From the IMG/VR virus record IMGVR_UViG_2877291059_000001: a stretch of DNA of 12,759 nt; one strand, 5' to 3'. Of this stretch, positions 10,630-12,584 are shown piece after piece. Each line of letters opens with the position of its first letter. Position 1 is the first letter of the stretch. The position numbers and the translations under genes were made by a program. The stretch comes from a virus (taxonomy: Duplodnaviria > Heunggongvirae > Uroviricota > Caudoviricetes). The notes under the pieces were generated by a model. The model was given only the letters and a program-made list of their open reading frames with translations, was not told the DNA's origin and made no database searches.

Positions 10630-10796
10630 ATGACTCAAAACTATGAACTGGTTGTGAAAGGGATCCGCAATTTTGAGAATAAGGTTACGGTAACTTTAGC
10701 ATTACAGGACAAAGAACGCTTTGACGGTGAAATTTTTGACCTGGACATCTCGCTGGACCGTGTTGAAGGTGCCGCGCTGGAGTTTTATGAGGATCT
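10630..10796 (+). pseudogene. DUF1327 (YdfR-like) lysis-cassette gene, 3'-truncated by the IS600-like insertion
   Basis: MTQNYELVVKGIRNFENKVTVTLALQDKERFDGEIFDLDISLDRVEGAALEFYED matches the N-terminus of YdfR-type proteins as recalled. The frame runs into IS sequence at about 10797. Confidence 0.6.
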
Positions 10797-11418
10797 GAGG
10801 TGTACTGGCAATAGCGGACACTACCATTTGTTCTTTTTTTAAGCAGCCATATGATGATATATCTGAGGTGTACTGGCAATAGCGGACACTACCATTTGTT
10901 CTTTTTTTAAGCAGCCATCTGATGATATTTTTCCCCATGGCGTAACCGACAATTTCGCACGTATAAACATCTTTGACGCCGGCGAGATACAGCCATCCTT
11001 CCCGGGTGGCAACATACGTTATATCTGCGACCCAGACCTGATTAGGTGCTGTGGGCGTAAAGTTCTGATTCAGCAGATTCGGCGTAACCGGCAGATTGTG
11101 GTCAGAGTTTGTGGTCGCCCTGAACTTGCGTTTCTGCTTACAGTGCAGCCTCAGCTCCTTACGAAGACGTGCCAGTCTGTCACGACCGACGATAATTCCG
11201 TTATCTTCCAGCTCCGTCTGGAGCCGCCGGGTTCCATATGTTTCGCGAGTGCGGATATGTGCCACCTTAATCTCCAGTTTTAGCCGCTCATCACTTTGTT
11301 TTCTGTCTGAGGGGGCATGCTGTACCCGGTCGTAATAACCGCTCCTCTGAGGGTTCATGCTGTACCCGGTCGTAATAACCGCTCCTGGATACACCAGGTA
11401 CCCGACACATCGCTTCAA
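10797..11418 (-). pseudogene. IS600-like orfB remnant
   Basis: Minus-strand ORF 10702-11418 repeats the forward copy's open frame (...GYLVYPGAVITTGYSMNPQRSGYYDRVQHAPSD...WVADITYVATREGWLYLAGVKDVYTCEIVGYAMG) but lacks the C-terminal third. Confidence 0.65.
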
Positions 11419-11571
11419 CAGGGAATTGTTGTCGCCATTGTTCGACTAACGCGCATTTTTCAGCGACTCCTGGGCAAAATACGCTGTTGCTTTTTTTAAT
11501 ATATCTCGCTCAAGTCGTGCTTCATTTAAAACACATCGCTTCAATGGGAATTGTTGTCGACCATTGTTCGA

Positions 11572-11763
11572 TTAACGCGTATTTTCTAGCGACTCCTGTG
11601 CAAAATACGCTGTTGCTTTTTTAATTATATCTCGCCCAAGGCGAGCCTCATTTAACGCCTTACGCAGTTGCAGAATTTCAGATTCCAGTTCAGCCACCGT
11701 GCGGGAACCAGGAGTACCGAGCCCTTTTCTGGCGGCGGTAACCCATTGTCCTAAAGGGCCTTC
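11572..11763 (-). pseudogene. IS600-like orfA remnant (C-terminal part)
   Basis: ...LPEGPLGQWVTAARKGLGTPGSRTVAELESEILQLRKALNEARLGRDIIKKATAYFAQESLENTR: helix-turn-helix and leucine-zipper-like region typical of IS3-family OrfA. The N-terminal part is missing. Confidence 0.6.
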
Positions 11764-11842
11764 AGGAAGGGATAACCCATTTATCACGCCTGCTGCCGGC
11801 TTTTATCTGGATTTCTGACTGACTGGGTGAAAATAAATATAA

Positions 11843-12176
11843 CCGCAGAAGATATTATTTACAGAATCGCAGCGAGCTCTGTCCGCAAACAGATGGGGAG
11901 ACCCTGACATTGGCGGGCTGATTATTGCTGCGTACCAGGGAGAAGCTGACGGTGATAAAGTCATCAGACTTGTCAGGGGGCAGTCATACAGAGGCTCACG
12001 ACTGGGACCGGTGGGGATTTCAGTGCCCAGTACTCCCACCGGAACGTATATAGCATCCCCACAATTTTTCATTACGGGATGTTCAGAGCATTCATTACTG
12101 GGGTCATATTGCGCCCTGTCCGGGGTGCCGGATGCTCATGTCTCTGGCGCAATGCTTGGGCTTTTTATTCGCACAT
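11843..12176 (+). pseudogene. Open frame without a start codon, possibly the 3' remnant of a tail-fibre-type gene
   Basis: Frame open from 11843 to TGA 12177-12179 with no in-frame ATG until near the end. Ends 12 nt before the next gene's GTG start. Identity not recognised, call based on context only. Confidence 0.2.
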
Positions 12177-12191
12177 CGTGAGGAATGCACC

Positions 12192-12584
12192 GTGGAAATT
12201 AAAAAAATCATTAATCCCCGTTATACCGAAAGTGGCGCAGTAGACTGTGACGTTTTTTTTGACGACAGGGACCAGGCAGTCCCCTACACAGCCACCGCTG
12301 ATGATGTCGCACCGACGGGTCAGCAAATCTGGCAGGAACTGCAAAGTGGCAAATGGGGTGAGATAGCCCCATTCACTGTGACACCAGAAATGCTGGAAGC
12401 GGCCAGAGAGGCCAGACGTCAGGAAATTGAAGCATGGCGCACAGAACAGGAGGCGAAGCCGTTCACGTTTGAATGGAACGGTCGTGTCTGGAATGCTGGC
12501 CCCAACTCACTGGGCCGCCTGCCTTTATCCGGTGGTAATGGCTGCGAAATCCGACATTGTACGGGACGTGATGACGTGGGGTGA
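12192..12584 (+). CDS. Hypothetical phage protein, possibly tail-fibre-assembly-like
   Basis: GTG 12192 preceded by GAGGA 7 nt upstream. Translation VEIKKIINPRYTESGAVDCDVFFDDRDQAVPYTATADD...PEMLEAAREARRQEIEAWRTEQ... The last ~20 residues (GGNGCEIRHCTGRDDVG) look non-native, suggesting a frameshift near 12525-12530. Confidence 0.35.
   Translation: MEIKKIINPRYTESGAVDCDVFFDDRDQAVPYTATADDVAPTGQQIWQELQSGKWGEIAPFTVTPEMLEAAREARRQEIEAWRTEQEAKPFTFEWNGRVWNAGPNSLGRLPLSGGNGCEIRHCTGRDDVG

What the first reader, a model, noticed from the sequence alone, without database searches (positions are those of the whole stretch)
10630..12192. IS600-like copy joins the lysis cassette directly to a tail-fibre-like remnant
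The DUF1327 gene is cut at about 10797 by the IS, and homology to the IS ends at about 11763. What follows is an open frame with no start codon (11843-12176) and then a phage-like gene. In intact lambdoid phages the endolysin, Rz, terminase, head and tail genes lie between the holin and the tail fibres. This implies an IS-mediated deletion that removed most of the structural region, leaving a cryptic prophage.
Basis: inference. Interest (0 to 1): 0.35.

Follow-up and report, generated by a model that had tools for sequence, protein, structure and literature searches.

The report
IS600 deletion scar in cryptic prophage
An IS600 insertion sequence sits where roughly 23 kb of lysis, head and tail genes were lost from a decayed prophage of Shigella dysenteriae type 1; this is ordinary IS-driven genome decay, and the IS copy as written in this window is garbled by assembly.

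Summary
The window is S. dysenteriae type 1 strain Sd1617 (CP006736.1). An intact class II holin gene (10410-10625) is followed by a truncated ydfR/DUF1327 gene. IS600-family sequence runs from 10796 to 11775, not 11763. Next come the last 135 codons of a 422-codon prophage tail-fibre gene (11776-12181) and a DUF4376 gene (to 12759). sitDCBA, uspF and ompN lie just outside the window. Two other assemblies (CP026777.1 and ADUT01000057.1) carry both junctions on one IS600 copy, so the join is not an assembly chimera. In them the IS600 is complete (1264 bp) and interrupted by IS911. It has no 3-bp target duplication (ATC versus CCC), whereas a neighbouring IS600 has one (AAT). That is the signature of an IS-associated deletion. 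An intact prophage in the same ttcA-to-sit slot of an EIEC strain has about 23.6 kb (endolysin to tail fibres) between the equivalent points. Two caveats apply. The internal anatomy of the IS in this window (tandem duplications, missing segments, a patchwork of two IS600 variants) is an artefact of contig merging. The downstream gene is DUF4376, not a Caudo_TAP tail-fibre assembly gene. This is a known kind of event and of low interest.

The parts
8943..10402 (+). IS2 copy (context). Its interior is scrambled in this assembly (1460 bp here against 1331 bp in CP026777.1). It ends 7 bp before the holin start codon.
   Evidence: Direct repeats D2, D3 and D5. Mapping to L016 16391-17721. 99.7% identity to the annotated IS2 of the EIEC strain.
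10410..10625 (+). Intact class II holin gene (71 aa, two in-frame ATG codons: MDQM...).
   Evidence: PF04971, E 9e-33. The exact protein is listed in about 25,000 blocks of the assembly collection; in the 10 places shown it is followed by DUF1327 and then, in most of them, lysozyme, Rz and terminase.
10630..10795 (+). 5' part of ydfR (DUF1327), cut by IS600. The window lacks the last 17 bp of the remnant that two other assemblies show (cut after codon 61 of 114).
   Evidence: PF07041 profile positions 1-54 of 93. Comparison with intact YdfR and with L016.
10796..11775 (-). IS600-family sequence at the junction, mis-assembled. Canonical IS600 end (10796-10860), repeated at 10864-10935. IS600 variant of the virulence-plasmid type (10934-11530, containing a 40-bp duplication). 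Canonical IS600 nt 857-1101 (11531-11775). Missing: 353 bp of interior, the nested IS911 and 163 bp of the orfA end.
10793..10928 (.). 68-bp tandem duplication (98% identical) covering ATC plus the IS600 end. Absent from L016 and L018; interpreted as unmerged overlapping contig ends.
11306..11386 (.). 40-bp tandem duplication inside the IS. The same duplication is present in the other IS600 copy of the window (6597-6677).
11405..11655 (.). Two copies of about 125 bp, 88% identical. One comes from the plasmid-type IS600 variant and one from canonical IS600, covering the same IS segment.
11776..12181 (+). 3' remnant of a prophage tail-fibre gene (codons 288-422 of 422), with no start codon. The frame is broken by an extra A at 11887-11889.
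   Evidence: tblastn. blastn to EIEC L001 14959-15366. phrog_2636, E 2.6e-38. The full-length relative carries PF08400 at its N-terminus.
12132..12759 (+). DUF4376 gene, the last gene of the prophage before sitD. Frameshifted by 4 extra bases within 12517-12523.
   Evidence: PF14301, E 3.3e-15. phrog_1141. 97-98% identity to intact 205-207-aa Shigella proteins. Position of the insertion.

Best explanation
The region is the scar of an IS600-associated deletion inside a single, mosaic, lambdoid-type prophage. The prophage occupies the ttcA (Rac) slot of the S. dysenteriae type 1 chromosome and carries sitABCD as cargo at its right end.

Shown:
- One IS600 copy abuts ydfR (after codon 61) on one side and codon 288 of the last tail-fibre gene on the other.
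- In two independent assemblies that copy is complete, and it is secondarily interrupted by IS911.
- Its two flanks do not form a target duplication.
- The chromosomal flanks on both sides are the native neighbours of this slot.

Inferred:
- The ancestor carried endolysin, Rz, terminase, head, tail and most tail-fibre genes between these two points. That is about 23-24 kb if it resembled the intact EIEC prophage.
- These genes were lost in one of two ways. Either two directly oriented IS600 copies recombined (one in ydfR, one in the tail-fibre gene), or one IS600 copy made an adjacent deletion by intramolecular transposition. The two routes leave the same structure and cannot be told apart here.

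Result: a prophage that can neither lyse the cell (a holin gene but no endolysin or Rz, with IS2 7 bp upstream of the holin gene) nor build particles, but that keeps sitABCD.

The odd internal anatomy of the IS in the window is a product of how CP006736.1 was assembled and is not biological.
For: - Source: the window is identical to CP006736.1.
- Both junctions in other assemblies: CP026777.1 (L016; strain 69-3818 per PMC7819885) and ADUT01000057.1 (L018) both show ydfR' | IS600 18132-20647 | CCCATTTATCAC.... These two assemblies agree with each other at 99.94% over 20.8 kb.
- The junction IS is complete: with IS911 (1249 bp, duplication TAG; 99.5% to annotated IS911) and one TAG removed, it is 1264 bp. 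It differs from the neighbouring IS600 by 3 mismatches and no gaps. The neighbouring copy (copy B) is 99.8% identical to annotated IS600.
- Target duplication: the flanks of the junction copy are ATC and CCC, whereas the neighbouring copy has AAT on both sides.
- What normally follows ydfR: lysozyme, Rz, terminase, head and tail genes.
- Same chromosomal slot as an intact prophage: EIEC CFSAN029787 has ttcA-int ... holin, RrrD, Rz, terminase, head, contractile tail, baseplate, tail fibres, DUF4376, then sitDCBA-uspF-ompN. The distance from the end of its holin gene to the breakpoint is 23,619 bp.
- Shared ends: the S. dysenteriae element shares its hok region (95-96%) and its tail-fibre/DUF4376 end (94% overall, about 99% over most of it) with that EIEC prophage.
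- Outside the window: downstream are sitDCBA, uspF, ompN and nifJ.
- Neither junction occurs in 5,426 complete E. coli genomes.
Against: - The ancestral state is not observed. The late-regulation and lysis module here (DUF968, RusA, Q, DUF1737, holin, YdfR; 94-99% to an E. coli ATCC 11775 prophage) differs from that of the intact EIEC and S. sonnei prophages at this site (DUF1367, YbcO, DUF1133, holin, RrrD). The identity and size of what was lost are therefore inferred from mosaic relatives.
- Absence of a target duplication cannot separate IS-IS recombination from intramolecular transposition.
- The tail-fibre remnant in the window differs at 6 positions in 176 bases from both other assemblies, although other unique DNA is identical. 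This is unexplained.
- I could not read the Sd197 chromosome with these tools.
Confidence: 0.85

Rival explanations
1. The join is an assembly chimera. The contig was walked through a multi-copy IS600 repeat and connects two loci that are not adjacent in the real chromosome.
For: CP006736.1 was built from 454, Ion Torrent and MiSeq contigs (604 and 562 contigs) using Sd197 as reference (PMC4445032). Every IS copy in the window is scrambled, and the junction IS is a patchwork of two IS600 variants. Another paper notes Sd1617 as the outlier with a truncated IS600 orfA near stx and an untypeable MLST profile (PMC7819885).
Against: Two other assemblies carry both junctions on the same complete IS600 copy, with identical flanks. 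One is a complete genome of a different strain. Both chromosomal flanks (ttcA side and sit-uspF-ompN side) are collinear with the EIEC genome.
Confidence: 0.03
2. The IS600 joins two different prophages. They were either integrated in tandem at ttcA, or one was brought in by IS600-mediated rearrangement. On this view the lysis cassette and the tail-fibre remnant never belonged to one phage genome.
For: The late-regulation and lysis module is of a different type from that of the intact sit prophages at this site. S. dysenteriae type 1 chromosomes are rich in IS copies and rearrangements (PMC4445032; general knowledge).
Against: The element shares its hok region (left) and its tail-fibre/DUF4376/sit end (right) with the single EIEC prophage. 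It lies between the native flanks ttcA and uspF. A rearrangement with a distant prophage should have broken one flank. Module exchange among lambdoid phages explains the different middle part more simply. A tandem double lysogen cannot be excluded.
Confidence: 0.1
3. The deletion arose by a mechanism unrelated to IS600 (illegitimate recombination), and IS600 later inserted at the novel joint by chance.
For: None specific. It cannot be excluded on first principles.
Against: A simple insertion should leave a 3-bp direct duplication, as the neighbouring IS600 (AAT) and the nested IS911 (TAG) do. The junction copy has ATC and CCC. It would also need the IS to land exactly on the joint.
Confidence: 0.02

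Closest known systems
IS-driven gene loss and prophage decay in Shigella (IS1, IS2, IS600, IS911 expansions; Yang et al. 2005 and Hawkey et al. 2020, both cited from memory)
   Same: A multi-copy IS sits at the joint of a deletion that inactivates mobile-element genes. There are nested IS insertions and many IS copies within a few kb.
   Different: Nothing different in kind. This particular joint (ydfR codon 61 to tail-fibre codon 288) was not found described in the papers I could search.
The sit island ('PAI sit') of Shigella and EIEC, originally described in S. flexneri (review PMC7545054, citing Fisher et al. 2009, which is not held in the library)
   Same: sitABCD lies at the end of phage-derived DNA. 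The size and content of the island differ between strains.
   Different: The review lists aspS and yecN as the insertion site and says the island sits at various chromosomal locations in four clusters. Here, and in the EIEC, S. sonnei and S. flexneri-labelled loci I read, the island lies between ttcA and uspF.
Intact prophage at ttcA in EIEC strain CFSAN029787 (NZ_CP011416.1, about 4,676,080-4,720,300)
   Same: Same chromosomal slot. Same right end (tail fibre with PF08400, DUF4376, then sitDCBA). hok region 95-96% identical.
   Different: It keeps integrase, early genes, endolysin, Rz, terminase, head, contractile tail and baseplate genes. Its late-regulation and lysis module is of another type and has no ydfR.
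S. sonnei remnant of the same prophage (HE616528.1, CP061367.1)
   Same: An IS600 end in the same orientation abuts the same tail-fibre gene. The head and tail genes are missing, while DUF4376 and sitDCBA are kept.
   Different: The breakpoints differ: a gpA terminase fragment on the left and tail-fibre codon 22 on the right. Endolysin and Rz are retained. It is therefore an independent event.
E. coli K-12 cryptic prophages Qin and Rac (general knowledge)
   Same: Qin carries the holin-ydfR-lysozyme-Rz type of lysis cassette. Rac occupies the ttcA slot and is also a deletion remnant that ends in tail-fibre genes.
   Different: The K-12 remnants keep an endolysin (Qin) and an integrase (Rac), have no sit cargo, and are not joined by IS600.
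Phages Rac-SA53 (KU052037.1) and phiP27 (NC_003356.1)
   Same: These are the closest deposited phages for the DUF4376 gene (about 80% nucleotide identity). In them it is also the last gene at the right end of the genome and is annotated as tail fibre.
   Different: Only the DUF4376 part matches (59% of the query). The tail-fibre remnant itself has no match in the phage collection.

Membership tests
IS600 (IS3 family) | Element of about 1264 bp bounded by imperfect terminal inverted repeats beginning TGAGGT | tested here: met
   Met in the independent assemblies: L016 18132-20647 has both ends and is 1264 bp once IS911 and one TAG are removed. Not met by the window as written: only the IRR end is present (twice), and the IRL end with 163 bp is missing.
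IS600 (IS3 family) | Near-identity to reference IS600 | tested here: met
   The neighbouring L016 copy B is 99.8% identical to records annotated 'IS3-like element IS600 family transposase'. The reconstituted L016 junction copy C is 99.76% identical to copy B. The window copy is a patchwork: 97-100% to canonical IS600 at 10796-10935 and 11531-11775, but 84% at 10934-11529, where it matches a 92%-identical variant from pSD1_197.
IS600 (IS3 family) | orfA (HTH_Tnp_1) and orfB (rve/DDE) in two frames | tested here: inconclusive
   L016 has a complete 100-aa orfA, with orfB split in two by IS911 (precomputed Pfam hits). In the window only fragments exist: a 238-aa ORF with HTH_21 and rve, and a truncated orfA at 11572-11787. 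The copy is certainly inactive as a transposase source.
IS600 (IS3 family) | 3-bp target-site duplication for a simple insertion | tested here: not met
   The flanks are ATC and CCC, while the neighbouring copy has AAT on both sides. This failure does not argue against the element being IS600. It is the evidence that this copy marks a deletion or recombination joint.
Class II holin (PF04971, P21 S type) | Full-length match above the Pfam gathering score | tested here: met
   112.5 bits against a cut-off of 26, profile positions 1-63 of 64.
YdfR / DUF1327 (PF07041) | Full-length domain | tested here: not met
   Only profile positions 1-54 of 93 are present. The gene is cut after codon 61 of 114 in L016, and 17 bp earlier in the window.
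Prophage tail fibre with PF08400 N-terminal domain | N-terminal domain PF08400 | tested here: not met
   The remnant has no Pfam hit. This is expected, because only codons 288-422 remain. The full-length EIEC relative has PF08400 at residues 1-131.
Prophage tail fibre with PF08400 N-terminal domain | Collinear homology to the C-terminal part of full-length members | tested here: met
   98% amino-acid identity over residues 326-422 and 64% over residues 288-331. phrog_2636 positions 472-567 of 568, E 2.6e-38. 94-97% nucleotide identity to EIEC, S. sonnei and S. flexneri-labelled loci.
Tail-fibre assembly protein (Caudo_TAP, PF02413) | Match to PF02413 | tested here: not met
   The gene at 12132-12759 matches only DUF4376 (PF14301). 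In the relatives a separate Caudo_TAP gene lies upstream of this tail-fibre gene.
Cryptic (defective) prophage | Phage-derived block that lacks genes essential for excision, lysis and particle formation | tested here: met
   Between ttcA and sitD in L016, L017 and L013 there is no intact integrase gene (only a 70-aa weak Phage_integrase fragment in L017) and no endolysin, Rz, terminase, portal, capsid or tail genes. All of these are present in the EIEC prophage at the same site.

The most novel reading that the evidence does not exclude
The sit-carrying prophage at ttcA has been trimmed independently in separate Shigella lineages by IS600-bounded deletions. In each case an IS600 end abuts the same last tail-fibre gene (S. 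dysenteriae type 1 at codon 288, S. sonnei at codon 22), and the DUF4376-sitABCD end is spared. This would point to convergent domestication under selection for the sit cargo and against lysis and structural genes, or to an IS600 preference for this gene.
Probability: 0.35. Interest if true: 0.3.

Novelty: already known. Interest (0 to 1): 0.1.

Why it matters
It matters little for biology. IS-mediated deletion is the textbook route by which Shigella prophages become cryptic, and this genome is published.

There are two practical points:
- IS-containing stretches of CP006736.1 should not be used to infer IS structure, truncations or small ORFs. In this window they contain unmerged contig overlaps, missing segments and sequence from a different IS600 variant.
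- The locus is a clean example of a prophage reduced to its cargo (sitABCD). A parallel but independent IS600-bounded reduction is seen in S. sonnei.

Tried and rejected
- Exact-protein look-ups of the ydfR-IS fusion ORF and of the 56-aa ORF in the remnant found nothing. The 150-aa and 63-aa DUF4376 fragments occur only in CP006736.1. I therefore could not test whether the +4 frameshift is shared by other type 1 strains.
- A scan of the GTDB species-representative genomes for the right junction found nothing. This is expected if no type 1 S. dysenteriae genome is among the representatives.
- Fisher et al. 2009 on the sit island is not held in the library.
- I first read the IS as truncated in orfA with an internal deletion. 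I rejected that reading as biology after L016 and L018 showed a complete element and after the patchwork origin became clear.
- I considered that the breakpoint of the window's truncated IS (canonical position about 1101) lies within a few bases of the start of the IS600 fragment next to the S. sonnei tail-fibre gene. I treat this as coincidence, because the window's truncation is not present in the other assemblies.
- tRNA and Rfam scans of the window found only two prophage tRNAs outside the region.
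Full report
**Source.** An exact-protein look-up of the 150-aa ORF at 12132-12584 returned a single contig, CP006736.1. The window from base 2132 onward is identical to the start of that locus. The window is therefore CP006736.1:1299735-1312493, the chromosome of Shigella dysenteriae type 1 strain Sd1617. The genome paper states that 454 contigs (604) and Ion Torrent plus MiSeq contigs (562) were combined into one chromosome using Sd197 as reference (PMC4445032).

**What is at the coordinates.**
- 10410-10625 encodes an intact class II holin (PF04971, E 9e-33).
- 10630 starts a ydfR/DUF1327 gene whose match stops at profile position 54 of 93.
- The IS600 terminal repeat TGAGGTGTACTGG begins at 10796.
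- IS600-family homology ends at 11775.
- From 11776 (CCCATTTATCAC) the sequence is collinear with the last 135 codons of a 422-codon prophage tail-fibre gene. The full-length relative in EIEC strain CFSAN029787 has PF08400 at its N-terminus.
- tblastn aligns residues 288-331 to 11776-11904 and residues 326-422 to 11888-12178 at 98%. The remnant matches phrog_2636 'tail fiber protein' at E 2.6e-38.
- The following gene, ending at 12759, is a DUF4376 gene (PF14301; phrog_1141). It is 97-98% identical to intact 205-207-aa proteins of S. sonnei, S. flexneri, S. boydii and S. dysenteriae 1012. It is not a Caudo_TAP assembly protein.

**Is the join real?** This needed testing because every IS copy in the window is scrambled.
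- Tandem Repeats Finder and the repeat finder show duplications of 45, 40 (twice), 198, 68 and about 125 bp, plus a reshuffled IS2. All of these lie inside IS sequence.
- A look-up of the window's Q antiterminator protein found two further large contigs. One is CP026777.1 (L016; strain 69-3818 according to PMC7819885).
- These two assemblies agree with each other at 99.94% over 20.8 kb. They are 100% identical to the window in three of the four unique segments tested: hok to Q, the DUF1737 region and holin-ydfR. The fourth, the start of the tail-fibre remnant, is the exception described under Residual puzzles.
- In both assemblies ydfR is cut after codon 61. An IS600 runs from L016 18132 to 20647, and the tail-fibre remnant starts at 20648 with the same CCCATTTATCAC.
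- Both junctions are therefore on one IS copy in independent assemblies. The join is real.

**The real anatomy of the junction IS.**
- In L016 and L018 the element is 2516 bp: a 1264-bp IS600 interrupted by a 1249-bp IS911. The IS911 is 99.5% identical to annotated IS911 and is flanked by a TAG duplication.
- With IS911 and one TAG removed, the IS600 differs from the neighbouring IS600 copy by 3 mismatches and no gaps. The neighbouring copy is 99.8% identical to annotated IS600.
- The window version is different. It lacks 17 bp of ydfR at the joint, repeats the IS end as a 68-bp tandem duplication, and lacks 353 bp of IS600 interior and all of IS911. It contains 40-bp and 125-bp duplications and lacks the last 163 bp (orfA start and the IRL).
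- Window 10934-11530 matches, with one mismatch, an IS600 variant that is 92% identical to canonical IS600. One search found this variant on S. dysenteriae virulence plasmids (next to ospC4 on pSD1_197). The segments on either side are canonical IS600.
- A patchwork of two paralogous elements with duplicated overlaps is what unmerged, reference-ordered contigs would give. I infer it is an artefact.
- PMC7819885 independently lists Sd1617 as the outlier with a truncated IS600 orfA near stx.

**Evidence that the IS marks a deletion.**
- The junction IS600 has the flanks ATC and CCC. The neighbouring IS600 copy (L016 13503-14766) has AAT on both sides, and the nested IS911 has TAG.
- Both genes at the joint are truncated: ydfR at codon 61 of 114 and the tail-fibre gene at codon 288 of 422.
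- In the prophages shown that encode the identical holin, ydfR is followed (in most) by lysozyme, Rz, terminase, portal, capsid and tail genes.
- The chromosomal context fixes the slot. Upstream of the element are dgcM, zntB, dbpA and ttcA. Downstream of the window are sitDCBA, uspF, ompN and nifJ.
- EIEC CFSAN029787 has an apparently complete prophage in the same slot. It runs from ttcA-intR-xisR through early genes, hok, a late regulator, holin, RrrD, Rz, terminase, head, a contractile-tail and baseplate module, tail fibres and DUF4376 to sitDCBA.
- In that prophage the distance from the end of the holin gene to the point matching window 11776 is 23,619 bp.
- The S. dysenteriae element shares the hok region (95-96%) and the tail-fibre/DUF4376 end with that prophage. 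Its DUF968-RusA-Q-DUF1737-holin-ydfR block instead resembles a prophage of E. coli ATCC 11775 (94-99%). This is ordinary lambdoid mosaicism.
- About 14 kb (integrase to replication genes) are also missing on the left side, with an IS600 fragment and IS1 at that joint.
- Neither junction sequence occurs in 5,426 complete E. coli genomes.

**Mechanism.** The shown steps are the IS at the joint, its intact ends, the missing target duplication, the truncated genes and the native flanks. The loss itself is inferred. It arose either by recombination between two directly oriented IS600 copies, or by an adjacent deletion made during intramolecular transposition of one copy. The IS911 insertion is a separate, simple insertion. 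The consequence is a non-inducible remnant. It keeps a holin gene, but it has no endolysin or Rz, IS2 ends 7 bp before the holin start codon, and it has no packaging or structural genes. The sit iron/manganese transporter cargo is kept.

**Rivals.**
- An assembly chimera is contradicted by L016 and L018.
- A join between two different prophages is not fully excluded, because the late module differs from the intact relatives. However, both ends of the element match one prophage, and both chromosomal flanks are native.
- A deletion unrelated to the IS, followed by a chance insertion at the joint, conflicts with the missing duplication.

**Comparison and novelty.** This is an instance of IS-driven prophage decay, which is well known in Shigella. 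The sit island is already described as variable, phage-associated DNA (review PMC7545054). S. sonnei genomes show a parallel event in the same prophage: a gpA terminase fragment, then IS600, then a 172-bp IS600 end fragment, then the same tail-fibre gene from codon 22. S. flexneri-labelled genomes keep the baseplate and tail-fibre part, with IS66, IS110 and IS600 upstream. The recurrence is mildly interesting as convergent trimming around the sit cargo, but it fits what is already known about IS expansion in Shigella. Interest is low.

**Residual puzzles.**
- Within 11776-11951 the window differs from L016 and L018 at six positions, including the extra A that breaks the frame. At two of these positions the window agrees with other Shigella instead. 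I could not determine whether this reflects reads from a paralogue, reference-derived sequence or real variation.
- The 4 extra bases in the DUF4376 gene could not be checked in other type 1 strains, because the fetched loci end before that point.

Noticed in passing
window 201-290, 6597-6677, 8033-8430, 9692-10163, 10793-10928, 11306-11386, 11405-11655: All tandem or scrambled duplications in the window lie inside IS1, IS2 or IS600 copies. Three of the four unique segments tested are 100% identical to two other assemblies. The pattern fits overlapping contig ends that were concatenated rather than merged in CP006736.1.
   Followed up: yes
window 10934-11530; L032 (NC_007607.1 pSD1_197, 119107-120263): This stretch of the junction IS matches, with one mismatch, an IS600 variant that is 92% identical to canonical IS600. 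The hits found for this variant are on S. dysenteriae virulence plasmids (next to ospC4 on pSD1_197). Plasmid-type IS sequence has apparently been placed in a chromosomal IS600 position by the assembly.
   Followed up: yes
L028 (CP061367.1) 6981-8860; L027 (HE616528.1): S. sonnei carries an independent IS600-bounded loss of head and tail genes in the same sit prophage. The order is a gpA terminase fragment, IS600, a 172-bp IS600 IRL-end fragment, then the tail-fibre gene from codon 22. Some strains have an extra IS1 in the tail-fibre gene.
   Followed up: partly
L016 4329-7817 (outside the window, left of it): There is a second IS-bounded deletion in the same prophage. ttcA is followed by an IS600 fragment and IS1 copies, then the hok region. 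About 14 kb (integrase, excisionase, recombination, immunity and replication genes) present in the EIEC prophage are missing.
   Followed up: partly
window 8943-10402 and 10410: IS2 ends 7 bp before the holin start codon, which separates the holin gene from its native upstream sequence. The holin ORF itself is intact and is identical to a protein listed in about 25,000 blocks of the assembly collection.
   Followed up: partly
window 4295-4370 and 4469-4545: Two prophage tRNA genes (tRNA with CAT anticodon and tRNA-Arg TCT) lie downstream of the Q antiterminator gene, immediately before an IS1 copy.
   Followed up: no
window 11776-11951: There are six differences from both other type 1 assemblies in 176 bases, although other unique DNA is identical. 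At two of the six positions the window agrees with other Shigella species instead. The cause is unknown.
   Followed up: partly
window 12517-12523: Four extra bases (GCCT/TGCC) frameshift the DUF4376 gene relative to intact Shigella homologues. This is not a homopolymer-type error, so it may be a real pseudogene mutation. It could not be checked in other type 1 strains.
   Followed up: partly
window 6165-7438: The second IS600 copy (plus strand) carries the same 40-bp duplication as the junction copy and is only 86-88% identical to real IS600 copies. In L016 the corresponding copy is a clean 1264-bp IS600 with an AAT target duplication.
   Followed up: partly
KU052037.1 51070-51647; NC_003356.1 41667-42244: In phages Rac-SA53 and phiP27 the DUF4376 homologue is the last gene at the right end of the genome. 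This matches its position here, next to the sit cargo.
   Followed up: no
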